Positions 4,411 to 54,104 of a stretch of DNA of 58,656 bases are shown piece after piece. A program made the position numbers and the translations under genes. The notes under the pieces are model-generated. The model worked only from the letters and a program-made list of their open reading frames with translations, was not told where the DNA came from and did no database searches. The stretch's first letter is position 1, and each line of letters begins with the position of its first letter. This DNA comes from a virus (Duplodnaviria; Caudoviricetes): IMG/VR virus record IMGVR_UViG_3300033475_000026, positions 1 to 58,656 of that record; one strand, given 5' to 3'.

Positions 4411-4985
4411 AATCAACGAGTTGGAGCGCGTCTGTGGGACAGTCCGCGCTCCGGGTCTCGATCGCTGATTAAGGCTAGTGCAGTAAATACTGTACCGGCC
4501 AGGAGGTCAAGACCTTTGATGTGTCCTCACGAGTTTGCGGCCTCTCCCAAAGGGCCGAAACAAAAAGCTGCCGCTCTGGTGAGCCCATTCCATCGGCAGG
4601 CCTTCGGGTGCGGGCATACCCCGCAATCGGTGATGAACACAGGCGCGCGTCATTGGATGACGACCGACCGCGCGTTTTGTGGGAGCGGCCTTGAAAACGC
4701 TCCGGCGACGATTTCGGGGACAACGAAATCGGCCCCATTTCGGGGGAAGGGGACTGAGTACGCGGGGTTTCGACCCTCTCCCTCGTCAGGAGCTTCGGAA
4801 GACCCGCGAAGGTCCTCTCCGAAGGCGGAAAGGGCGAAGCTATGGAGAAACGGAACATGAACTGTCTCGCCCCGCAAAGCCAATCGGAGATCGCAGCGTG
4901 AGAGATCAGGAAAGCCTTATGTCCTCCCAGGACCACACCCTCACCACCTTTGCTGCGCGGATCGCAAGCGATCTCTCCGGTCAAC
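4385..4985 (+). ncRNA. Large hairpin-dense non-coding element (candidate structured RNA and/or replication origin)
   Basis: More than a dozen back-to-back stems, e.g. GGAGCGCG/CGCGCTCC, GGCTAGTGCAGT/ACTGTACCGGCC, CTGCCG/CGGCAG, TGCGGG/CCCGCA, CGTCAT/ATGACG, GGAGCG/CGCTCC, CGATTTCG/CGAAATCG, CTTCGGA/TCCGAAG, GGGCGA/TCGCCC; no convincing ORF. Strand is inferred from the operon. Confidence 0.55.
4921..4934 (+). repeat. Cassette-end repeat, left type (GTCCTCCCAGGACC)
   Basis: Matches the reverse complement of GGTCCCGGGAGGAC with one mismatch. Confidence 0.55.
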
Positions 4986-8107: not shown

Positions 8108-8760
8108 TGGCTCTCTTCCGCGGTCAATCGTCGTCCGTGGCCGCAGCGTTAAGCCCGGGGGGCGGGGGACCTCCTCCAGCCGGCCTGCTGTTCGACGCCA
8201 ACTTCCAGACGGGGACGTATGAGGTGGCGGGATCACCGGCCACAGTAGCAGACATCCTTTCCGAGAACACGAACTGGGGCTCATGGAACCCCGCGACGGA
8301 TATTGATTCCAATGGAATTGTGTTCGACCCCGGAGTTGGCCCGGTGCTTGCGGCAGCCTTCTTCACCACTGCATCAACGGCTGGCATCACCCTAACCGGC
8401 GCCATCACCCTTGGCGCTCAGACCGATTCCGGCGTGCTATGGGAGATGAACGACGACCCCACCTACACCGCGGAAAATGCAGGGGAAATCCAAACGGATG
8501 CCCTAACCATAGTTGATTACGTCGGGTCTGACACCGCATCTGGTCCTGGGTCGGGAACTTTCAACTACGCCCTCAACATGGCCCCCGACCGGATCGCCAT
8601 GAGTGTCAACGGTAGCGGTGTGTTGGCGCGAGACGTTCCTGCTGTGACCTTCACCCTCTTGGGCCTCTACCCGGCGTCCGAAAGCGTGGCCTACCTAGTG
8701 TCCATAGCAGGCCGCGCCCTCGTCGCCGAATCCGAACTCCCGACGCTGAGCACGCCCTGA
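8107..8760 (+). CDS. Putative receptor-binding or lectin-like virion protein
   Basis: Short N-terminal peptide, GGGGPPP linker, then a beta-rich domain. Confidence 0.5.
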   Translation: MALFRGQSSSVAAALSPGGGGPPPAGLLFDANFQTGTYEVAGSPATVADILSENTNWGSWNPATDIDSNGIVFDPGVGPVLAAAFFTTASTAGITLTGAITLGAQTDSGVLWEMNDDPTYTAENAGEIQTDALTIVDYVGSDTASGPGSGTFNYALNMAPDRIAMSVNGSGVLARDVPAVTFTLLGLYPASESVAYLVSIAGRALVAESELPTLSTP

Positions 8761-45840: not shown

Positions 45841-46027
45841 CCCCCGCCAAGCCTGTTCAAACCCAGCCGTTTATGCCATGGTGAGGATGCTGCGATGCGG
45901 TCTTGTAGGAGCGCACTGCGTGGGATTCGACGGATGCTGGCCTCGGCTGGCTCTGCGGCTTAAACTATCGAGCCTGACCTACCCGGAGACGTCTGGGGCA
46001 TCGCAGCATTCTCCCCTCGCCAAGCCT

Positions 46028-46276
46028 CTATCTCCACCACGGCCCAGTCTCCCAGACCCTGACCCCACACTCACAGTCACTCCGAGCATACCTCGCCACC
46101 TCTCGGATCGGTGTTGACCATCCCCCGACCTTCCGGCGCTGAAGGTCTGCCACTACGACCTCGAACGGCAAGTCGCGATGACGGCCGCAGGCGATGCAGG
46201 AGAAGCGGGCGCCGCAACACCGGTGCTGTCCGGCGAGGGTTGAGAGGGGGAGGCCGGGGTCTTGGGTGGGGCGCAA
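46028..46276 (-). CDS. Small zinc-binding protein, candidate SOS-induced antirepressor
   Basis: CIAC...CEC; GGAG RBS before TTG; LexA box upstream. Confidence 0.55.
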   Translation of the reverse strand: MRPTQDPGLPLSTLAGQHRCCGARFSCIACGRHRDLPFEVVVADLQRRKVGGWSTPIREVARYARSDCECGVRVWETGPWWR

Positions 46277-46318
46277 AACCGTCAGACTCCGTCGAAAACC
46301 CCAGGCGTTCCGGGGCGT

Positions 46319-46333
46319 GAACTGATCGGGAAC
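46319..46333 (-). promoter_or_regulatory. Alphaproteobacterial LexA box GTTC-N7-GTTC
   Basis: Plus strand GAAC-TGATCGG-GAAC. Confidence 0.65.
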
Positions 46334-46370
46334 AGTTGGACGGCCGCCAGCAAAATCAAGGGCCACCATG

Positions 46371-46418
46371 CGACTTTTAATCGAATGGTCGTGAGTTCGA
46401 ACCTCACCCGGCCTACCA
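46371..46418 (+). other. attP core: 3' half of tRNA-Lys(UUU)
   Basis: CGA-CTTTTAA-TCG anticodon arm, GTGAG-TTCGAAC-CTCAC T-arm, CCA end; next to the integrase; flanking CCGTC(AGAC/GAAAAC/CAAC) arm-type repeats. Confidence 0.88.
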
Positions 46419-46481
46419 TAACTCTTTGAAGTTATGGATTAATTTTCCGTCGAAAACGTATCGTCGCCGACCGTCCAACAT

Positions 46482-47630
46482 TCATCCGACCTCGCCGTCA
46501 GACCTTCGCGCCCGATTGGTTCCCACGAAGCCGCGCCGACGCTGGGCTTTCAGGGCCAAATCGCTGTCGCGCGGGAGGTAGTGGGAGAGGATCGCGGCGG
46601 CGCCAGCCGGCGAGTGGCCGGTGACGCTGGCGATCTCCGGGATGCCCGAGCCCTTGCGCGCCATCTGGACAACGCAGCTATGGCGGAGCGCGCGCAGGAC
46701 CAGGTGGGGACCGCCGGACGCCTTGCGGATGTCGGCGAAGACGTGGCCCAGGCGCTGCTCCGCCCAGGGCTTGCCGGTGGCCTTGTCGGTGAAGAGGTAG
46801 GGACTATCGGGGTCCTTGATCTCGTCCAGCAGGTCCTGCAGTTCGTCGTCTACGCGGACGGTGACATAGGCCTCGGTCTTCGATTGCCAGAAGCGGAAGG
46901 CCCCGGCTTTGTATTCGGCGCCACGCCGGAACAGCCGGGCGTCGGTGACGCGCTGGCCGATCTGCCAGAGGGTCAGGATCATCGCCGCGACCGCCGGCTG
47001 GCCATAGTCCACCGCGGCCTTGCGGTAGAAGTCCACGTCAGCCTTTTCCCAAATCGTGACCTTGGACTTGGGCGCGCCCATCTTCACGGTGGCGAGCGGG
47101 TTCGTGGTCCGCCACTCCAGCTGCATCGCGCGGTCGAGGAGCATCGAGAAGACGATCTTGAGATGGCGCCGCGTGGTCGGCCGGTCATCGAAATGGCGCA
47201 GGAACGCCTCGATCGGCTCCAGCTTCAGGCTCGACACGGGCGGATGGCCGACCGCCTTGGACCAGGCTTCGATCAGCCCGGCGTGGTAGATGTAGCCCTG
47301 CTGGGTCTTGGGCTTCTTGTCGCGGAAGCGCTGGGTCTGCTGCCAGGAGCGGATCAGCTCGGGCATGGACCTGGCCGGCGGACCGATCTCGCGACCCAGG
47401 CGCGCGGCGCGGAGCTTGTTCAGGAGGTGCTTGGCGTCGGCCTGGATGCGGCCCACCTCGGCGGCGTCGTTCAGATCGCCCCGCCGCTCACCGTTGACCG
47501 GAAGGGGTATCGCCGGCGACCAGCCGGAGGGCCGGAGCCTTGCCGGGACCTCGAACAGCACGCGCGCCGTCCCGTCCTTGCGGTAGCGGATGGTCACGTA
47601 GCGGCCGAGATCTAGCTGCACGATAGGCAT
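46482..47630 (-). CDS. int: Tyrosine integrase (start may be at 47666)
   Basis: GQRVTD (R), QSKT (K), RALRHS, TGH, SHYL (Y). Confidence 0.92.
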   Translation of the reverse strand: MPIVQLDLGRYVTIRYRKDGTARVLFEVPARLRPSGWSPAIPLPVNGERRGDLNDAAEVGRIQADAKHLLNKLRAARLGREIGPPARSMPELIRSWQQTQRFRDKKPKTQQGYIYHAGLIEAWSKAVGHPPVSSLKLEPIEAFLRHFDDRPTTRRHLKIVFSMLLDRAMQLEWRTTNPLATVKMGAPKSKVTIWEKADVDFYRKAAVDYGQPAVAAMILTLWQIGQRVTDARLFRRGAEYKAGAFRFWQSKTEAYVTVRVDDELQDLLDEIKDPDSPYLFTDKATGKPWAEQRLGHVFADIRKASGGPHLVLRALRHSCVVQMARKGSGIPEIASVTGHSPAGAAAILSHYLPRDSDLALKAQRRRGFVGTNRARRSDGEVG

Positions 47631-47892
47631 CGGGCTCGAATTTCCAGGGGTCGCCTTGCGAGGCATCGGAGGCTCCATCCGTGGTGAGGCCAAGCGCCTT
47701 GAGAACGTCCGCCCGGTCGAAAACTGTGGATCGACCGCCCTGGACGGTGGACGGTTTGAGCCAGGCCGGGTCCTGCCGGCGCTTGCGCATGAGGGTGGCC
47801 AGCGAGAAGCGGCCCAGCTGGCACACCTCAGCCGTCGTCATCCGCAGCGGCAGATGATCCGGGTCGAGAGCGATGCGGGCCAGGTCAGCCAT
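47488..47892 (-). CDS. xis: Excisionase-like HTH protein overlapping int
   Basis: MTTAEVCQLGRFSLATL...FDRADV. Confidence 0.7.
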   Translation of the reverse strand: MADLARIALDPDHLPLRMTTAEVCQLGRFSLATLMRKRRQDPAWLKPSTVQGGRSTVFDRADVLKALGLTTDGASDASQGDPWKFEPDAYRAARSRPLRDHPLPQGRDGARAVRGPGKAPALRLVAGDTPSGQR

Positions 47893-49108
47893 CAGCCTTC
47901 GCCTCGCTGGATTGAGTTGGATGGGGGTCCTTGAAGAGCTGATCGCTCGTCGCGCTTATCCGGCTGCTCCTGCGAGCGATTGACCGGCTTTCATCTGCAT
48001 GAGGCTGAGCGCTCAGCCCGATCCTGAGGATGTTCAGCGCTGCGTTGCGGTCACGATCGTGCTCCGCCCCGCAGTCCGAACAGACCCAGGACCTCATTCC
48101 AAGCGCACCCATGCCTTTCGGGCTGCTGGCGGGGATGGTCCCGCAAGCCGAGCACACCTGGGAAGTGAAACGCTCGTCGACCTCTACGAACCGGGCTCCG
48201 TGCCTGCTGGCCTTGTAGCGGAGCTGGGATCGGAACATCGACCAACCTGCGTCGAGCACGGACTTGGCCATCCGGGTCTTTGCTAGCTGGCCAGCGTCCA
48301 CGTTGCCGACAGCGATGAACTCGTAGGACTTGGCGATTCTGGTCGTCGCCTTGTGGATATGATCTTTGCGGATGTTGGCGATCCTGGCGTGGATCGCGCG
48401 CGTCCGCCGCTTGTTGCCGGCGCGTTGGGCGACCCCCAGGCGATGTTCATATTCGCGATATGACCGCAGAGCCTCGACAGTCGATCCGTCGCTCAGGTGG
48501 GCTACGGTCTTGAGGCCCAAGTCGATGCCGACTGCTGCAGTGCTAGCGCTCTCGGCTTGCTGAACCTCGCACTGTAGGGTCAACCACCATCGGCCCTGCG
48601 CGTCTTCGACAAAAGCGCCCGACTTGAACTTTGGCGGTAGCGGCCGGCTCTTGGTCCCAAAGACCCGGATTGGCTTGCCCAGGTAGACCAAGGCGCCGTC
48701 CTTCATGGGCTGGAACCGTCCTTTGAAAGGAACCCAGCCAAGCGCTCGCCTGCGGCCGCCTGAGGCCCGGAACCGTGGTGCGCGTCTAGCGGCGTCTCGC
48801 GCAACGGCAAAGGTGCGGCAGACCTCGCCGATTGTGTCTGATCGAATGCCCAACTCGGTCGACACGCCAGTCGTGAGCATTGTCAGATCGAAGTGTGAAG
48901 CCCAGCGCCGCTTGGGCGCACCGGCGCGATAGCGAGCCTCACAATCGCGCTGCAGGGCTACGGCGTAGTTCCAGATTTGATTGCAGCCCCAGGCGTAGGC
49001 GCGGAGTGCCTTGCGCGCAGACTTGTCCTTGATCCTGTACTTGTAGGTGAGGATCATTGTCGGCGTCGCCTTCTCAGCCGCACTCTTGAGCCCTTCGAGA
49101 TCGGTCAC
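47885..49108 (-). CDS. tnpB: TnpB-family RNA-guided nuclease, orphan, rearranged RuvC-II (internal ATG at 49057)
   Basis: TYKYRI, NQIWN, GIDLGLK, IAVGN, DAGWSMF..QL.YK, VDERFTSQ.CS.C, W.C..CG..HDRD.NAA.NI; no tnpA. Confidence 0.9.
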   Translation of the reverse strand: MTDLEGLKSAAEKATPTMILTYKYRIKDKSARKALRAYAWGCNQIWNYAVALQRDCEARYRAGAPKRRWASHFDLTMLTTGVSTELGIRSDTIGEVCRTFAVARDAARRAPRFRASGGRRRALGWVPFKGRFQPMKDGALVYLGKPIRVFGTKSRPLPPKFKSGAFVEDAQGRWWLTLQCEVQQAESASTAAVGIDLGLKTVAHLSDGSTVEALRSYREYEHRLGVAQRAGNKRRTRAIHARIANIRKDHIHKATTRIAKSYEFIAVGNVDAGQLAKTRMAKSVLDAGWSMFRSQLRYKASRHGARFVEVDERFTSQVCSACGTIPASSPKGMGALGMRSWVCSDCGAEHDRDRNAALNILRIGLSAQPHADESRSIARRSSRISATSDQLFKDPHPTQSSEAKADG

Positions 49109-49263
49109 GGCAGAAGCCCTCCACTCGACCTGACGGCGGACAGCTCGTCTTCCTCGTCCTCTTCCAGATCGACACAGGTCGGGCAGAGGTCGTCGTCGAG
49201 GACACCGGCCGGGTGCTCTTCGCCGCATCGGCGGCAGGACACAAACTCTTCGGGCTCGCTCAT
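49105..49263 (-). CDS. Small zinc-finger protein with acidic tail
   Basis: CRRC...CPTC...EEDEEDE; coupled overlaps. Confidence 0.6.
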   Translation of the reverse strand: MSEPEEFVSCRRCGEEHPAGVLDDDLCPTCVDLEEDEEDELSAVRSSGGLLP

Positions 49264-49679
49264 TTCGTGGTCCTCCCTGGGCCTAGATCAGCACCTGTGG
49301 GGGTGGGGGTGGGACTGCCGAGGGCCTTAGCCATGGCCTCGCGGACCTCTTCACGGGTGACGGAGCCCAGCACCGAGAAGCACGGGTCGGTGCTCACGAA
49401 TTGCAGCACCCTGAGCAGTTCGGGCGCAGCCGCAATCAAGCGGGCGTTGGCGACCCCTTCGGCGTGGTCGAACGCTTCATCTTCAAGCCGAGTCACCACG
49501 ATGGCGAAGTCCGACCAGTTAGCGCCTGACACGCCAGTCCAGCCGGGCGGCATTTGCTCCCCGTTCACGAAGCAGGTGGCGGTTTCGAGATGCCACGGCC
49601 CCGGCGTATGCACACCCCTGGTGCGACGGGGGCCGATCAGTTCGACTGGACCCGGGAGGGACATATCTTCCTTGTTCAT
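49260..49679 (-). CDS. HTPGPW...LIAAAP-family phage protein; both ends encoded by cassette repeats
   Basis: HTPGPW, ANARLIAAAPELL. Confidence 0.75.
   Translation of the reverse strand: MNKEDMSLPGPVELIGPRRTRGVHTPGPWHLETATCFVNGEQMPPGWTGVSGANWSDFAIVVTRLEDEAFDHAEGVANARLIAAAPELLRVLQFVSTDPCFSVLGSVTREEVREAMAKALGSPTPTPTGADLGPGRTTK
49269..49662. mobile_element. Candidate cassette bounded by GGTCCTCCCTGGGCC / GGACCCGGGAGGGAC
   Basis: Inverted repeat pair inside the two ends of one gene. Confidence 0.5.
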
Positions 49680-49873
49680 GGGCCTTTATCCTGGGGCTGA
49701 TCGGAGGTGGAAAAGGCTCTGCGCTCTTTCATCCGCATGATGATCCGATCCAGAGCGGCGCGGGCGTCATAGTCGTCGTCCAGAAGCCACGCCTCGTAGG
49801 AGCCGATCGCCTCGTCCACGATGTCGGCGAACCTGCCGCGTTCCTGTTGATGGCGCACGTAAGGCTCACCCAC
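49676..49873 (-). CDS. Hypothetical protein
   Basis: GGAGG before GTG; coupled. Confidence 0.5.
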   Translation of the reverse strand: MGEPYVRHQQERGRFADIVDEAIGSYEAWLLDDDYDARAALDRIIMRMKERRAFSTSDQPQDKGP

Positions 49874-50084
49874 GGTCGACCTCCTTGAGCAGGGCGCGGC
49901 CGGCGTCGGTGATGCGCGTGAAAAGGCTTCTGCCTTCGGTGTGCGGATCGCAGACGAGGCCCATCCTGGCGAGCGACAGAACGAGCCGTTGCTCTTCCGC
50001 GCCCCGCACATAGAGGCCGTGGGGTCGAAGCGCGACCATGCCCAGCATGACGTGCTCTTCCTCAGTCAGCTTCACGCCGCTCAT
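49866..50084 (-). CDS. Small winged-helix-like protein
   Basis: SLARMGLV...ITDAGRALL. Confidence 0.65.
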   Translation of the reverse strand: MSGVKLTEEEHVMLGMVALRPHGLYVRGAEEQRLVLSLARMGLVCDPHTEGRSLFTRITDAGRALLKEVDRG

Positions 50085-50398
50085 CTGTCCTGCTCCTGGG
50101 GGATGGGGGAGAGGGCGGAGGCCGCGATCTTGTCGATGTCTTCGAGCGTCGACTTCGGGACCGTGGGCGAGCTGTGTTGAAGCTCGAACGCGACGTTCTG
50201 CCGGACGGCGACAAGCGCCTCTCCTCGCGCCCGATGGGAGGCGATCAGGAGGCGGAGGTCGGCGGCGTGCTGAATGGCCTCGGGATACCAGCCGGGCACC
50301 TTCTCGACGTGCCGCTCGATCTCGGTCGCGCGCTTCTCCAACCGCTCTACAGCGGCTTGAAGCTCTTCCCTGTCAGCCGGGATGGGGTAGGGGCTCAT
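50081..50398 (-). CDS. Hypothetical protein
   Basis: GAGGA RBS; coupled. Confidence 0.6.
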   Translation of the reverse strand: MSPYPIPADREELQAAVERLEKRATEIERHVEKVPGWYPEAIQHAADLRLLIASHRARGEALVAVRQNVAFELQHSSPTVPKSTLEDIDKIAASALSPIPQEQDR

Positions 50399-50802
50399 GC
50401 TGTCCTCGTGGGGATGAAGCGGCGGAACCCGCGCGACTGGATCTTTCGACCCTGAGGCCATTCGTTCCGTGATTTGAGGCTGGACACTGGGGCGCCCTCA
50501 GTCTCACGCTTGATGATCCGGTTGGCCTTGGCCTGGGCTTTACGGTCGGCCTTGGTCTTCGCCGCGTGACAGGAGGTGCACTTGCCCAGCCAATTTGAGG
50601 GCTCGTGCCTTCCGCCAATTGCACGGCTGATCACGTGATCGATTTCCCAGCGACCGGTCAGCGGCTCTTCACAGTCGGAGCACTGACCGGACTGGGCTTC
50701 GAACACAGCCCTGCGCTGGGCGGGCGTGAACGACTTCCGCGTCTCGATCTCAACGATGGCCTGGCGTAGCTCGGCGAGCTTGGTGGCAATGGGAGCTTTC
50801 AC
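50395..50802 (-). CDS. HNH endonuclease
   Basis: CSDC...EIDHVI....GG....N....C..CH..KT. Confidence 0.85.
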   Translation of the reverse strand: MKAPIATKLAELRQAIVEIETRKSFTPAQRRAVFEAQSGQCSDCEEPLTGRWEIDHVISRAIGGRHEPSNWLGKCTSCHAAKTKADRKAQAKANRIIKRETEGAPVSSLKSRNEWPQGRKIQSRGFRRFIPTRTA

Positions 50803-51623
50803 AGCAATCTCCCGAGAGATTGCATGTAGTCGATCGGGTCCTTGGCGTTCTTGCGGACATTGCAGGTCCGGCAGAGAAGCTGGATGTTCCGCGCCTCATG
50901 AAGGCCGCCCCTGGCGAGCGGAACCACGTGATCCATGTGGTAGCCATGCTTGAGGTTGATACGGCAGATTGCGCAGCGCCATCCTTGGGCTTCGCCGATC
51001 CGCGGAATGGTGCCCCACGGCAAGCGGCCAAGCTTGCGCCCCAGGCGACGCCGCGAGGATTCTCGGGATTTGTGCGGGTTGCGCTTCCGATATGCCCGCA
51101 ATCTGGCGGCGGACTTACCGCTATCGCGCAGCCGCGCCCTCTGGGCTTCGTAGCCGCCCTTCCATGAGGCGCTCTCAGGCCCCCGTGGTCGCCGGATAAG
51201 TCCGGCGGCTGACATCGCTCCCGTAATCTGCTTTGCCAGTGCTTTTGCCTCAGGACTGTTTAGCGCTTCCTGAGCCGCGCTGTTGCACGCTTGGCGGCAG
51301 AAGCGCCCCTGTCCTAAGCGGATTTGGCGTGGCCGCGGAATGAAGCTGGCGCCGCAGGTTTCGCAGTTCCGGCGCCGCGCTTCACGCTCTTCGGCGCGTG
51401 CGGCTGCGGTGCATCTAGGTCCGCAGCGCCGGTACATCCCAACCTTGGATTGGGGCAACCACATAGAGCGAAGACATACGTTGCAAGTCACGTGTACCTT
51501 CGTCTCATCCTCCACGAACCTCAGCTCGTACCAGGTGACCCGTTTTGTCGGCCGTGACGCGCTGGCGATCTCAGCCTTGGCGGCGGCGATGCGGTCTCTG
51601 CGTTCCTTGTCGAGCTGGATCAT
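50799..51623 (-). CDS. HNH endonuclease with N-terminal zinc fingers (homing type)
   Basis: CETCG..F......GRFC...C; CAIC...HMDHVVPLARGG.H...NIQLLC..CN..K. Confidence 0.85.
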   Translation of the reverse strand: MIQLDKERRDRIAAAKAEIASASRPTKRVTWYELRFVEDETKVHVTCNVCLRSMWLPQSKVGMYRRCGPRCTAAARAEEREARRRNCETCGASFIPRPRQIRLGQGRFCRQACNSAAQEALNSPEAKALAKQITGAMSAAGLIRRPRGPESASWKGGYEAQRARLRDSGKSAARLRAYRKRNPHKSRESSRRRLGRKLGRLPWGTIPRIGEAQGWRCAICRINLKHGYHMDHVVPLARGGLHEARNIQLLCRTCNVRKNAKDPIDYMQSLGRLL

Positions 51624-51844
51624 TTGAACGCATCCGGAAAGACCATCACGAAATAGGGGTCGGGCTCCTCGCCGCACTTGAAGGCGATCACGGCTTCGGC
51701 CAGGCCTTCCCCGAGCGATTGTTCGCGGGCTGGTCGCAGCTCGCGCGCGGCCTTCTTCCCGTGCTTCGCCTTGGCGTGCTGATAGCGGGCGTTCTCGTCG
51801 GCGAAGCTGGCGGTGCAGTGGGGGCAATGGACGTCGCGCATCAC
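51620..51844 (-). CDS. C2H2-like zinc-finger protein
   Basis: CPHC...F...NARYQHAKAKH. Confidence 0.7.
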   Translation of the reverse strand: MMRDVHCPHCTASFADENARYQHAKAKHGKKAARELRPAREQSLGEGLAEAVIAFKCGEEPDPYFVMVFPDAFK

Positions 51845-51993
51845 TTGGCCCCTCTGCGGATCGACGCAAACAAGGCCTGCATTCGGTTGCGCTGACAGGT
51901 CGGACAGCCTCCCGGATAGCGCATCGCGTCATAGTTCGTGCCGCAACTCAGGCACTTCGACTTGCGACCCTTTGATTGCTGGCGCTTTCCCAT
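51841..51993 (-). CDS. Small zinc-ribbon protein
   Basis: Translated by hand: MGKRQQ...CLSCG...CPTC...GAK*. Confidence 0.5.
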   Translation of the reverse strand: MGKRQQSKGRKSKCLSCGTNYDAMRYPGGCPTCQRNRMQALFASIRRGAK

Positions 51994-51994
51994 G

Positions 51995-52552
51995 TCAGGC
52001 AGCTCGGACGGCGCTACGAACGCCGCCCGCTCCCTGCCCTGCCGATGAAAGCTGTTCGGGGCTGATCCCCAGCATATCGGAGATCAGTTCGAGGATAGCC
52101 CGCTTGGAGGCGTTGAAGTCCTTCCCGCCCATGGCCCGATAGGATTGCGACTTCGCCTCGCGCATGATCACAAACACGCCGCGCACGAACACCAGGCGGA
52201 AATCGTCCATCGCCCGGATCGCCGCGGCGACGCGGATCGCGGCGGCATTGGTCCCGGCGTCGATAACCGTCTCGTGGTAGTATCCGGCGTCGATCAGGGC
52301 GCGTTTGCGGAGGTGTTCGGGCGACGGATATTGGTCGGCGACCGACTCCGGCAGCGTCTTCCAGGCTTCCTTGATCCAGGCGAACTCGTGGCCATGGGTC
52401 TTGTCGGATCGCTGGGGCTCGATGCTCAGCCAATATGCGGCGCCACCCGTGAAGGTCTCGGCGGCGCGGCGGCGGAAGCGCGGAACGGCCGTCAGCGTCT
52501 CGGCTTCCGCGTCCCAGGTGAAAGCCATGGCGGCGGGGTTGTCGGTCATCAA
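51995..52552 (-). CDS. NinB/DUF1367-like recombination accessory protein
   Basis: RS...H...FA....AW..LPE...PSPEHLRK.ALI.AGY...AKSQS..AM. Confidence 0.65.
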   Translation of the reverse strand: MMTDNPAAMAFTWDAEAETLTAVPRFRRRAAETFTGGAAYWLSIEPQRSDKTHGHEFAWIKEAWKTLPESVADQYPSPEHLRKRALIDAGYYHETVIDAGTNAAAIRVAAAIRAMDDFRLVFVRGVFVIMREAKSQSYRAMGGKDFNASKRAILELISDMLGISPEQLSSAGQGAGGVRSAVRAA

Positions 52553-53307
52553 ACGACCCTCTGATCAGCATGGACGATGAAGCCCGGAATGGTGCGCTTG
52601 CCTTCGCGGACGTCGGTTTCCGCCAGCGACAGCAGGAATGCCTTCATCGCGTCGGGCTGGGTCTCGACGTAGTGGACGAGCGCCGCCTTGGGGCTCACCA
52701 GCTCGGGCCGGTAGTAGGTCCGCAGCGTGGTCGCCCGCGCTCCGCCCAAAGCCGCCGGCCGATCCTTCTCGGCGCGGGTCGCGGCGGCTTCCGCCTGGCG
52801 CGCGGCCTTGACCAGCGCCTCGGCATCTTCGCGCGCTTCCAGATCGGTCTCTGCGGCGGCTTCCAGGGCCTCCTGGGCGGCTTGGACTTTCGCCTCGGCC
52901 TCCTGACGCGCCAACTCCGCGGCGGCCTTCTTGGCGGCCTCTTGGGCCTGTAGCCACGGGGCGAGTGCCTTCTTGCAGGTGTCGACGGCCAGGTCCGCCC
53001 GTTCCAGCAACGGCTTCCACTTCGCCTGTACGGCCTTGGCCGCTTCATCGTGGGGCCGCTTCTCGTCCGAGCGGGCCCGGTCGGCATCCTTGGCGGCGGT
53101 GCGGATCAGATCCAGCAGCTTGGAGACCGCCTCGGCCTCACCCTCAGAGTTGACGCCCTCGCCGTCGAGGAAGTTCTTGGCCTCTGCGAACAGGTCGTTG
53201 ATGTGGGCCGCGAAGCCGTCGAGGGGGCTTTCCGAGGGTGGTTCGTTGTGACCGATCCCAGCGATGATCTGGGCGTCGGCGGCGAGTTCGGCGAGCGCGG
53301 CCATCAA
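52549..53307 (-). CDS. Recombination-module coiled-coil protein
   Basis: IGHNEPP...R..EK.P.......V.A.W...IPG; next to the annealing protein. Confidence 0.7.
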   Translation of the reverse strand: MMAALAELAADAQIIAGIGHNEPPSESPLDGFAAHINDLFAEAKNFLDGEGVNSEGEAEAVSKLLDLIRTAAKDADRARSDEKRPHDEAAKAVQAKWKPLLERADLAVDTCKKALAPWLQAQEAAKKAAAELARQEAEAKVQAAQEALEAAAETDLEAREDAEALVKAARQAEAAATRAEKDRPAALGGARATTLRTYYRPELVSPKAALVHYVETQPDAMKAFLLSLAETDVREGKRTIPGFIVHADQRVV

Positions 53308-54104
53308 GCGAACTCCGGCACGTTATCCGCGCCCAGGCCGAAGCCCTCGGCCTTCTCGGTCAGCCGCTCGAAGAGGGTCTTGTATAGCCCCTCGATCTCG
53401 GCCAGCCGCTCGGGGTCCCCCAGGTCCAGTTCGCCGCAAAGCTTGGAGCCCTTGGCGTAGGCCTTCCGCAGATCGTCAGCGGTCTTGCAGGAGCGCATGG
53501 CGCTTTCGAGGGTGTCGGCTCGCTGGCTGAGCGATAGCGTGGCGGTCGTGGTTGCTGGTGCCAGGCGCTTCTCGTCCTGCTTCGGCGCGTCGGCCTTGGT
53601 GGTGGACGCCGGGACGTTCTGGGCGGCGTCCTTGACCAGCAGGCCCTCCAGCTTCTTACGGTCGGCCGCGCTGATCTGCTCGCGCTCGTCCAGATCGACC
53701 CAGGGCGTCGGGAGGTGGTAGAGATACCGCCCGATCCCCCAGCGCACGGCGGCGCGCTTGAACGCGTCCGACAGCGCGCCCTTCTCGGCCTCGATGTCGC
53801 TGTCGCCGGCGCCGTCCGCCTTCGTGACCCAGCCGCGTCCTTCGACCCAGATGTCGATCTCACACACGGTCTTCTTGTCGACGTGCGGGTAGCGGTCCTG
53901 CCAGTTGTCGGGTCCGCACACCTCGTCCAGCCGGTCCATCACGTCGCGGGCGTCGATATAGGCGAGCACCTGACCCTTGGTGGCCTTGGCGTTGTTGTCT
54001 CCGGTCTCGCGTTGGCGCTTCTTCTTGTTGCTCACGCCCACGCGCCAGGACACTTGGTCAGGGCGGAACGGGGCGGCCAGGCGGGTGAACAGGTCGTCGC
54101 TCAT
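53304..54104 (-). CDS. Rad52/Sak-family single-strand annealing protein
   Basis: LAYIDAR.VMDRLDEVCG..NW...EAEKGALSDAFKRAAVRWGIGRYLY. Confidence 0.92.
   Translation of the reverse strand: MSDDLFTRLAAPFRPDQVSWRVGVSNKKKRQRETGDNNAKATKGQVLAYIDARDVMDRLDEVCGPDNWQDRYPHVDKKTVCEIDIWVEGRGWVTKADGAGDSDIEAEKGALSDAFKRAAVRWGIGRYLYHLPTPWVDLDEREQISAADRKKLEGLLVKDAAQNVPASTTKADAPKQDEKRLAPATTTATLSLSQRADTLESAMRSCKTADDLRKAYAKGSKLCGELDLGDPERLAEIEGLYKTLFERLTEKAEGFGLGADNVPEFA

What the first reader, a model, noticed from the sequence alone, without database searches (positions are those of the whole stretch)
47885..49108. Orphan TnpB with a Fanzor-type rearranged RuvC site, fused to a phage N-terminus and wired into the early operon
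Seen: RuvC-I D (GIDLG) and RuvC-III D (DRDRNAA) are present. The canonical RuvC-II E is a G (IAVGNV), and an alternative E lies 44 residues later (VDERFTS). There is no tnpA. The frame begins at a GTG coupled to the upstream gene with a typical phage leader (TDLEGLKSAAEKATP), and its stop overlaps xis. The 3' end reads GAAAGCCGG-TCAA, without the usual IS200/IS605 subterminal hairpin, followed by the hairpin ATCGCTCG...CGAGCGAT. Known: the G-for-E swap with a downstream compensating E marks Fanzors and their closest TnpB relatives, which can be active. Inference: an immobile, phage-domesticated RNA-guided nuclease or regulator whose guide is either 47964-47979 or supplied in trans.
Basis: partly seen in the sequence, partly recalled or inferred. 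Interest (0 to 1): 0.72.

Follow-up and report, generated by a model that had tools for sequence, protein, structure and literature searches.

The report
Stranded TnpB insertion element in phage
This is an intact RNA-guided nuclease gene (tnpB) with its own guide-RNA module, left without transposase or left end between the early genes and xis of a temperate phage; it belongs to a known, common class and is ordinary.

Summary
Aligned to ISDra2 TnpB, D179, G251 (in place of the RuvC-II Glu) and D336 fall at the catalytic positions, and E295 lies 44 residues after G251. This is a clade-wide trait, not a peculiarity of this copy: G251 and E295 are invariant in 120 of 120 closest homologues. It matches the published "RuvC-II rearranged" TnpBs, one of which is an active nuclease (PMC10691335, PMC10530073).

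Three parts of the interpretation fail:
- **No phage N-terminus.** Homologues and the database gene call start at ATG 49057.
- **A right end exists.** A covariance model built without the window matches 47951-48056 at full length (89 bits). The guide is therefore 47950-47931, not 47964-47979.
- **Not Fanzor-like by sequence**.

No tnpA, no detectable left end and no near-identical copy were found, so this copy is probably immobile. The protein shows no decay (0 of 89 conserved columns changed). Its nearest relatives are multi-copy mobile elements. No conserved gene partnership supports domestication.

Verdict: a new member of a known kind, of low interest.

The parts
47885..49057 (-). tnpB coding sequence (390 aa, ATG start). 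RuvC-I D179 is at 48521-48523, G251 at 48305-48307, alternative E295 at 48173-48175 and RuvC-III D336 at 48050-48052. The C4 zinc finger is C302, C305, C326, C329. The last ~29 residues (47888-47974) are read-through of the right end and flank.
   Evidence: (identical 390-aa database call). The tail 353-390 has pLDDT below 50. 91 of 120 homologues end by query position 370.
49058..49108 (-). It is probably untranslated leader, or where a left end once lay.
   Evidence: No homologue support. A GGAGG lies 9 nt before the GTG, so use of this start is not excluded. No left-end similarity was found.
47951..48056 (-). Right end / 3' module of the omega-RNA scaffold. Stems lie at 48014-48019 with 48002-48007, 47999-48001 with 47992-47994, and 47984-47987 with 47960-47963. 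The terminal motif CCGGATAAGCGCG ends at 47951. The scaffold probably starts further 5', inside tnpB.
   Evidence: Model R1, built from 15 relatives without the window, scores 89 bits, E about 1e-20, model positions 1-110 of 110, with no non-standard pairs. 10 of 23 predicted pairs show compensatory changes.
47931..47950 (-). Predicted guide segment of the omega-RNA: the DNA immediately 3' of the right end, 38 nt upstream of the xis ATG.
   Evidence: The position follows from the right-end boundary and from the known TnpB rule that the guide is the flank 3' of the RE (recalled, and in the PMC10530073 passages). No second match within 3 mismatches exists in the phage.
47942..47981 (.). It pairs guide nt 2-9 with the 5' half of the scaffold's variable hairpin.
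   Evidence: It is not used in the minimum-energy fold. Its significance is marginal and it remains unexplained.
49105..49263 (-). Upstream 52-aa CxxC...CxxC gene of unknown family.
   Evidence: No Pfam or PHROG match.
47488..47892 (-). xis-like gene, named by position and by 70% identical relatives upstream of integrases. Its ATG overlaps the tnpB stop.
   Evidence: No Pfam or PHROG family match.
46482..47693 (-). Tyrosine integrase. The true start is probably downstream of the listed TTG.
   Evidence: PF00589, 2.4e-07. 71% identical over 389 aa to L018.

Best explanation
The locus is a non-autonomous, tnpB-only element of the IS200/IS605 superfamily (IS1341-like layout). It sits in the gap between the phage's early-left genes (Erf, exonuclease, NinB-like, two HNH genes, small ORFs) and xis-int.

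**Shown.**
- The protein is a full-length TnpB of the described RuvC-II-rearranged class: Gly at the canonical Glu, and an invariant Glu at the end of the next beta-strand.
- It carries its own right end, a structured omega-RNA 3' module ending at 47951.
- No left end, no transposase and no second copy were found.
- The closest relatives are mobile, multi-copy elements with 23-bp inverted ends.

**Inferred.**
- This copy descends from such an element and has lost (or never brought) its left end, so it is stranded.
- Read-through transcription from the early-left operon gives tnpB mRNA.
- TnpB cuts the 3' part of that mRNA into an omega-RNA whose guide is 47950 to about 47931.
- The complex would cleave DNA carrying a TAM plus that roughly 20-nt sequence, which is the tnpB-less version of the same site in a related phage. 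Recombinational repair would then copy the element in. This is the known selfish retention or homing role of TnpB.

The 30-aa C-terminal tail is read-through of the right end and flank, up to the stop codon that belongs to the xis module.
For: **Family and catalytic residues.**
- Pfam and PDB matches. Foldseek ranks ISDra2 and ISFba1 TnpB first.
- D179 in 119 of 120, G251 in 120 of 120, E295 in 120 of 120 and D336 in 120 of 120 closest homologues. The four zinc-finger Cys are invariant in 20 of 20.
- 0 of 89 columns that are at least 95% conserved are changed in this copy (others: median 1, maximum 5).
- In the model, E295 follows strand 289-294, next to strand 247-252. This fits the beta-5 glutamate described in PMC10691335.

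**Right end and omega-RNA.**
- Alignment and covariation.
- The independent model hit ends exactly at 47951.
- Its 89 bits lie just below the training set (94-114 bits) and far above the other right-end type (52 bits or less).

**No tnpA:**

**No left end.** The best local match to the expected inverted end scores 9, and 23% of shuffles do as well.

**Single copy.**. The nearest protein among 5.8 billion is 64% identical.

**Mobile kin.**
- L002 and L003 are 100% identical over 1117 bp at two sites of one contig. L004 is 94.7% identical in another context.
- In the tree, WIN groups with L019, L002 and L004 inside a sub-clade with SH-aLRT 99 (quick tree only).

**Tail.** Most relatives stop inside the right end. 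The same overlapping stop/start (ATGGxTGA) ends unrelated upstream ORFs in L018 and L098.
Against: - No tnpB-less sibling of this phage was found, so the insertion boundaries, and the 5' one in particular, are not shown directly.
- The TAM is unknown. The 5' flanks of the six relatives that have a left end show no common motif.
- 10 of 16 distinct loci of this sub-clade lack the inverted left end yet sit in different contexts. A left end of another kind, or another way of spreading, is therefore not excluded.
- The homologue set was chosen by likeness to this protein, which favours a low deviation count.
- The GTG start has the better Shine-Dalgarno match.
Confidence: 0.7

Rival explanations
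1. Domesticated phage tool. The TnpB-omega-RNA pair has been kept by the phage for its own benefit. It could act as a free-standing RNA-guided homing or exclusion nuclease against co-infecting relatives. Alternatively, it could modulate xis-int expression by processing or binding just upstream of xis.
For: - The protein is intact with no decay and the omega-RNA module is intact, although the left end and tnpA are gone.
- It is co-oriented in the early-left operon beside phage recombination genes.
- Its stop is coupled to the xis start, like the native upstream ORFs of relatives.
- In cultured Ralstonia phages, a copy without left end or tnpA (Heva) and a different tnpB (Cimandef) fill the same site next to terS.
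- Non-restorative homing into co-infecting phages is discussed in PMC13565253 (passages).
Against: - No conserved association was found: 0 of 4 xis-int relatives have tnpB, though only L018/L097 and L098 have several kb of upstream sequence. 1 of 92 family loci is near an integrase, and there it is in divergent orientation.
- Copies without a left end are scattered in the tree (4 changes for 8 rows), as expected for repeated decay.
- No target for the guide was found in the phage. The single hit in viral contigs is an unrelated AT-rich contig.
- 89% of TnpB clusters are immobile anyway (PMC10691335).
Confidence: 0.12
2. The element is still mobile. Its left end is present but of a kind I did not recognise, and a transposase encoded by the host moves it in trans.
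For: - 10 of 16 loci of the sub-clade lack the inverted left end yet lie in unrelated contexts.
- Sister clades have Y1 TnpA next door: 12 of 92 loci. Pfam confirmed this for two of them (L007, L020) and for the tnpA of phage Hyacinthe (L106).
- Mini-elements that carry only the ends and the omega-RNA module exist in relatives.
Against: - No significant similarity was found between the 203 nt upstream and either the expected inverted end or any of five relatives' left ends.
- The best upstream similarity to any of the family loci compared (L045) is not significant after allowing for the number of loci compared.
- No near-identical copy exists in the protein database.
Confidence: 0.1
3. Inert relic. 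The gene is intact by chance or recent arrival but makes no functional ribonucleoprotein in this context. Possible reasons are that translation runs through the right end, or that guide nt 2-9 pair with the scaffold.
For: - The ORF reads through the omega-RNA 3' module and the guide.
- An 8-bp complementarity links the guide and the scaffold.
- The variable hairpin is shorter here than in relatives, and the alignment there has low posterior probability.
- Truncated tnpB remnants occur in phages, for example Gamede with 39% coverage.
Against: - 0 of 89 conserved columns are changed.
- All 13 model base pairs are standard.
- Other family members also read through the same terminal motif (RIS(A)T tails in P0003, P0004, P0006 and P0011).
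Confidence: 0.08

Closest known systems
RuvC-II-rearranged TnpBs ('RIIr' clades of Altae-Tran et al. 2023, PMC10691335; 'TnpB2', e.g. Thermoplasma volcanium TvTnpB, Saito/Xu et al. 2023, PMC10530073)
   Same: - Gly at the canonical RuvC-II Glu.
- A conserved Glu about 45 residues downstream (44 here).
- A DRDxN RuvC-III motif and a C4 zinc finger.
- The whole clade shares the trait.
   Different: - TvTnpB is archaeal, sits in an IS605 with TnpA, and is shown to cut DNA. This copy is bacterial-phage borne, has no TnpA and is untested.
- I could not assign it to a named RIIr branch, because the papers' supplements are closed and I saw only passages.
ISDra2 TnpB (PDB 8exa, 8bf8, 8h1j)
   Same: It is the best solved relative by sequence (2e-28) and by fold (Foldseek 2.3e-18), with the same domain order and RuvC-I and RuvC-III Asp.
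   Different: - ISDra2 has the canonical E278 where this protein has G251.
- ISDra2 is part of an element with Y1 TnpA and hairpin ends.
Inverted-repeat-bounded tnpB-only elements in IMG/VR contigs (L002/L003, L004, L019, L034, L040, L041)
   Same: - Nearest clade (58-60% aa identity).
- The same right-end motif and omega-RNA stems.
- The same Gly/alternative-Glu arrangement.
   Different: They keep a 23-bp inverted left end 25-39 nt before the ATG, occur in several copies, and mostly stop translation inside the right end. The window copy has none of these features.
ISPa83-like IS605 elements of cultured Ralstonia phages (Dimitile, Hyacinthe, Heva)
   Same: - 45% identical TnpB with the same Gly/alternative-Glu arrangement.
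- Resident in phage genomes.
- The Heva copy also lacks tnpA and a left end and is co-oriented just upstream of a conserved phage gene.
   Different: - The right end is of the classical hairpin-plus-TCAA type.
- 99.5-99.8% identical copies lie in three phages at different places, so these elements are demonstrably recent and mobile.
TldR (TnpB-like nuclease-dead repressors; Wiegand et al., bioRxiv 10.1101/2023.11.30.569447)
   Same: A prophage-borne TnpB relative with an adjacent guide RNA and no transposase.
   Different: - TldRs have lost two or more RuvC residues and often the zinc finger, and they have a fixed partner gene (fliC, oppF).
- Here the triad (with the alternative Glu) and the zinc finger are intact and no partner is conserved.
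- That paper itself warns that alternative-Glu TnpBs are falsely flagged as dead (passage).
Fanzor (eukaryotic and giant-virus TnpB homologues)
   Same: The same kind of Glu relocation.
   Different: - Only distantly similar: Fanzor2 9b0l scores 4.6e-12, weaker than ISDra2, and Fanzor1 is not hit.
- The host here is a bacterial temperate phage.
Free-standing homing endonuclease genes of phages (SegF, Mob, HNH)
   Same: This is a functional analogy only. It is a selfish nuclease gene in an intergenic spot next to a conserved gene, and it would cut the allele that lacks it.
   Different: Target recognition would be by RNA guide, not by protein, and it is unrelated in fold to those families.

Membership tests
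TnpB (IS200/IS605 accessory RNA-guided nuclease) | OrfB_IS605 (RuvC) plus zinc-ribbon/TNB domains and the TnpB fold | tested here: met
   PF01385 at 7e-12 and PF07282 at 2e-24. ISDra2 TnpB at 2e-28. Foldseek ranks 8h1j and 8iaz first, probability 1.00 (model mean pLDDT 74.9).
TnpB (IS200/IS605 accessory RNA-guided nuclease) | Canonical RuvC D-E-D triad | tested here: not met
   D179 and D336 are present, but the canonical Glu is G251.
RuvC-II-rearranged TnpB class | Inert residue (Gly/Pro) at the canonical Glu, plus a conserved alternative Glu about 45 residues downstream, conserved across the clade | tested here: met
   G251 and E295 are 44 residues apart and both occur in 120 of 120 homologues. 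The criterion is taken from PMC10530073 and PMC10691335 passages.
RuvC-II-rearranged TnpB class | The alternative Glu sits in the active site next to the two Asp | tested here: inconclusive
   The model puts E295 right after strand 289-294, beside strand 247-252. The tool returns no coordinates, so no distances could be measured.
RuvC-II-rearranged TnpB class | RNA-guided DNA cleavage | not testable with these tools
   This needs biochemistry.
IS200/IS605-type insertion sequence (complete, mobile) | Right end with omega-RNA scaffold | tested here: met
   Model R1 scores 89 bits at full length and ends at 47951. Covariation supports the stems.
IS200/IS605-type insertion sequence (complete, mobile) | Left end | tested here: not met
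   No match better than shuffles in the 203 nt upstream. The only motif-like hit within 7 kb (51192-51201, 1 mismatch) lies inside a coding region with no extended repeat, and 6 hits were seen against 3.8 expected by chance.
IS200/IS605-type insertion sequence (complete, mobile) | TnpA (Y1 or serine) in the element or genome | tested here: not met
   0 matches at E up to 1 in the complete phage record. The host genome is unknown.
IS200/IS605-type insertion sequence (complete, mobile) | Near-identical copies at unrelated loci | tested here: not met
   One copy in the phage. The nearest protein is 64% identical. Met only for relatives.
TldR | [quoted passage not shown] | tested here: not met
   Only the canonical Glu is missing and it is compensated. 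The zinc finger is intact.
TldR | Conserved association with a non-transposon partner gene | tested here: not met
   0 of 4 xis-int relatives have tnpB. 1 of 92 family loci lies near int/xis, and there it is divergent.
Fanzor | Encoded in eukaryotes or giant viruses, with closest sequence kinship to Fanzor clades | tested here: not met
   The setting is a bacterial temperate phage. Fanzor2 scores weaker than ISDra2, and Fanzor1 is absent from the hits.

The most novel reading that the evidence does not exclude
tnpB-plus-omega-RNA cassettes without a left end or transposase, like this one, may be a phage-adapted lifestyle rather than wrecks. On this reading they are free-standing RNA-guided homing or exclusion nucleases. 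They would spread between related phages by cutting the tnpB-less allele and being copied in by the phage's own recombination genes (Erf and exonuclease lie 3.5-5 kb upstream). Here the guide is aimed at the DNA just upstream of xis. The read-through tail would have been kept because it preserves translational coupling to xis.
Probability: 0.2. Interest if true: 0.5.

Novelty: new member of a known kind. Interest (0 to 1): 0.2.

Why it matters
There is little news for the biology of TnpB. The rearranged catalytic site, the frequent lack of a transposase and the frequent immobility are all in print.

Practically, it adds one compact (about 360-aa core), apparently intact nuclease with a definable omega-RNA 3' end. 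It also shows how a sequence-only reading can mistake an ORF extension and a sub-clade-specific right end for a fusion and a missing end.

The side observations may deserve a look of their own:
- inverted-repeat ends and omega-RNA-only mini-elements in this sub-clade;
- different tnpB genes filling one site next to terS in Ralstonia phages.

Tried and rejected
- **Rfam.** Nothing at E up to 1 in 46000-50000.
- **tRNA at the attachment site.** None called.
- **Search for a tnpB-less sibling.**
  - The 139-aa upstream protein has no relative in viral contigs.
  - The xis query found L018 in viral contigs. In genome contigs the first scan found nothing and the second one Caulobacter MAG fragment. 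The metagenome scan gave three loci, one of them the same contig as L018.
  - In all of these, homology to the window starts at xis, so no empty site was obtained.
- **Guide 20-mer.** No second site in the phage. The one exact hit in viral contigs lies in an unrelated AT-rich contig with no other similarity, so it is chance.
- **P0006** (63% identical, similar tail, on a 61.8-kb contig).
- **Candidate distant left end at 51192-51201.** Rejected: it is coding, has no extended repeat and is expected by chance.
- **Flank similarity to L045.** The 5' flank gives p = 0.003 for one comparison, but it was picked from the family loci compared. The 3' flank gives p = 0.11. Rejected.
- **Composition.** tnpB GC3 is 0.748 against a phage mean of 0.777 (sd 0.06), which is uninformative.
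- **Promoter and terminator scan.** 0 promoter-like sites, and 5 terminator-like sites against 3.0 expected, which is uninformative.
- **Tree.** The careful tree did not finish in time, so the quick tree (SH-aLRT only) is what I cite.
- **dN/dS.** Not attempted, because the nearest relative is 60-64% identical and synonymous sites would be saturated.
- **Papers.** Supplements are closed, so the named RIIr branch and mobility tables of PMC10691335 were not seen.
Full report
**What the window is.** The window is a complete 58,656-bp virus record with direct terminal repeats, and the region in question occurs once in it. All genes from about 46.4 to 56 kb lie on the minus strand. PHROG and Pfam scans give this order:
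- Erf-like annealing protein (53304-54104)
- exonuclease (52549-53307)
- NinB-like protein (51995-52552)
- two HNH endonucleases (50799-51932 and 50395-50802)
- several small ORFs
- the tnpB ORF
- an xis-like gene (47488-47892)
- a tyrosine integrase (46482-47693)

The phage is therefore temperate, and tnpB sits at the distal end of its early-left operon.

**The observation.**
- HMMER alignment to ISDra2 TnpB places D179 on D191, G251 on the catalytic E278 and D336 on D361. E295, 44 residues after G251, faces a proline.
- Pfam finds OrfB_IS605 and the Cas12f1-like TNB zinc ribbon.
- The Foldseek search of an AlphaFold2 model (mean pLDDT 74.9) ranks ISDra2 and ISFba1 TnpB first.
- No Y1 or serine transposase is encoded anywhere in the phage.

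**The rearranged site is a clade trait and is in print.**
- Among the 120 best of 3973 significant homologues, G251 and E295 are invariant (120 of 120 each), D179 is present in 119 and D336 in 120. The four zinc-finger cysteines are invariant in a 20-sequence alignment.
- Passages of PMC10691335 describe RuvC-II rearrangements in two major clades and eight large branches. The largest has Gly for Glu and a compensating Glu on the next strand, and some branches are enriched in viruses.
- Passages of PMC10530073 describe the alternative Glu 'approximately 45 residues away' and show that such a TnpB (TvTnpB) cuts DNA.
- The TldR preprint notes that these proteins are falsely flagged as dead.
- By sequence the protein is nearer to canonical ISDra2 TnpB (2e-28) than to Fanzor2 (4.6e-12), and Fanzor1 is not hit. 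'Fanzor-type' therefore overstates the kinship.

**The start.**
- 101 of 120 homologues begin in the column of the Met at 49057, and 7 have unrelated long extensions.
- The database's own gene call for this contig is the 390-aa ATG form.
- tblastn matches to phage TnpBs begin at residues 18-27 of the GTG form for the 16 listed rows that reach the N-terminal part of the query. The other 14 listed rows are partial matches starting at residues 129-206.
- The 17 extra codons have no support. The frame is simply open, and in fact stays open up to 49228.
- A GGAGG lies 9 nt before the GTG, so its use cannot be excluded. There is still no phage-derived domain.

**The 3' end.** Comparing 3' regions of family loci from viral contigs shows two right-end types.
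- Most loci have the classical hairpin followed by ..GTCAA or ..GTTA.
- A sub-clade of 16 distinct loci, including the window, ends in ..CCGGATA(A/G)GC(A/G)CG.
- Within this sub-clade the last ~110 nt form conserved stems. 10 of 23 predicted pairs show compensatory changes.
- A covariance model built from the 15 other members matches the window once, at 47951-48056. It covers the full model length, scores 89 bits, has all pairs standard and ends exactly at 47951.
- That score lies just below the training sequences (94-114 bits) and far above the other end type (52 bits or less).

The right end and omega-RNA module are therefore intact. The guide should be the next 16-20 nt (47950-47931), not 47964-47979, which lies in the scaffold's variable hairpin.

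**The tail.** Most relatives stop inside the right end, and 91 of 120 end by query position 370. This copy lacks that stop and reads on through the right end and guide to the TGA that overlaps the xis ATG.
- The model gives residues 353-390 a pLDDT below 50.
- In two xis-int relatives, unrelated upstream ORFs end at the same overlapping ATGGxTGA. That stop therefore belongs to the xis module.
- Whether the read-through is selected because it keeps translational coupling is inference.

**Left end, mobility and kin.**
- The closest viral relatives (L002/L003: two 100% identical copies in one contig; L004: 94.7% identical in another context) define a 1136-bp element. It has 23-bp inverted ends, and the left one starts 39 nt before the ATG.
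- Six of the 16 sub-clade loci have this left end, and ten, including the window, do not.
- In the window, the 203 nt upstream match neither the expected inverted end nor five relatives' left ends better than shuffles.
- In a quick maximum-likelihood tree the sub-clade is well supported (SH-aLRT 99). WIN groups with L019, L002 and L004, and copies without a left end are scattered (4 changes for 8 rows).
- The nearest protein anywhere is 64% identical.
- The protein is not decaying: 0 of 89 highly conserved columns are changed. The caveat is that the set was chosen by likeness to the query.
- Sister clades carry a divergent Y1 TnpA. The neighbour cluster covers 12 of 92 loci, and Pfam confirmed two of them (L007, L020) plus the tnpA of phage Hyacinthe.

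**Domestication.** I found no conserved partner.
- None of the four xis-int relatives has tnpB upstream. L018/L097 and L098 have 5-7 kb of upstream sequence, while L099 and L096 have only 555 and 146 nt. In all four, homology begins at xis.
- Only 1 of 92 family loci lies beside an integrase, and there it is in divergent orientation.
- PMC10691335 reports 89% of TnpB clusters as immobile, so a single-copy, TnpA-less tnpB is the norm.

**A parallel in cultured phages.**
- Ralstonia phages Dimitile, Hyacinthe and Heva carry 99.5-99.8% identical ISPa83-like tnpB genes (45% identical to ours, with the same Gly/alternative-Glu arrangement) at different places.
- Dimitile and Hyacinthe have the Y1 tnpA. 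The Heva copy shares only 1091 bp, starting 2 nt before the ATG.
- At the Heva site, just upstream of terS, the sister phage Cimandef has a different, canonical-Glu tnpB whose right end abuts the same flank. Alix has an unrelated gene there.
- This looks like the cassette turnover seen at homing-endonuclease hot spots. It fits the 'non-restorative homing' idea in PMC13565253, but it is not evidence about the window itself.

**Verdict.** The locus is a stranded but intact tnpB plus omega-RNA element of a known rearranged class. The fusion, missing-end, guide-position and domestication readings do not.

Noticed in passing
L003:5962-7097, L004:5962-7097, L019:3485-4640, L040, L041, L034: A sub-clade of IS200/IS605-type tnpB elements is bounded by about 23-bp terminal inverted repeats (CATGCTTATCCGG.. 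/ ..CCGGATAAGCACG). None of the 18 tree rows has an adjacent TnpA. The family is usually said to lack inverted ends (PMC13565253 passage). The transposase that moves them is unknown.
   Followed up: partly
L003:4270-4507, L004:3172-3439, L002:1493-1594: Mini-elements of about 235 bp have the same inverted ends and carry the omega-RNA 3' module but no tnpB (model R1, 57-66 bits). They could supply extra guides in trans.
   Followed up: partly
L102:7999-8108 and 8122-8220: A tandem duplicate of the omega-RNA 3' module lies directly after a tnpB (79 and 77 bits). It is a two-unit array-like arrangement.
   Followed up: no
L107 (Ralstonia phage Heva) 2484-3574; L109 (Cimandef) 1141-2404; L108 (Alix) 1486-2298: The same intergenic site just upstream of terS holds a rearranged-Glu tnpB in Heva, a different canonical-Glu tnpB in Cimandef and an unrelated reverse gene in Alix. 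The two tnpB right ends share their last ~37 nt and abut the same flank. In Alix a TTGAC precedes the matching flank.
   Followed up: partly
L019:3471-3484 and 4641-4654: The same 14 nt (TCTGATATCATGCT) stand on both sides of this element. The other copies show no target duplication.
   Followed up: no
window 47488-47693: The xis-like ORF and the integrase ORF overlap by about 200 nt in different frames. Both frames give tblastx matches to relative L018, so either the true integrase start is further downstream or the overlap is real.
   Followed up: no
window 46270-46430: A non-coding stretch after the integrase is conserved in relatives L018 and L096 (a Caulobacter MAG fragment). It is a candidate attachment site, although no tRNA is called in the window.
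   Followed up: no
window 50395-51932: Two HNH endonuclease genes stand back to back in the early-left operon, about 1.3 kb upstream of tnpB. This region of the phage has collected several selfish-type nucleases.
   Followed up: no
window 47942-47949 / 47974-47981: An 8-bp perfect inverted repeat pairs nt 2-9 of the predicted guide with the scaffold's variable hairpin. It could mask the guide or could be chance.
   Followed up: partly
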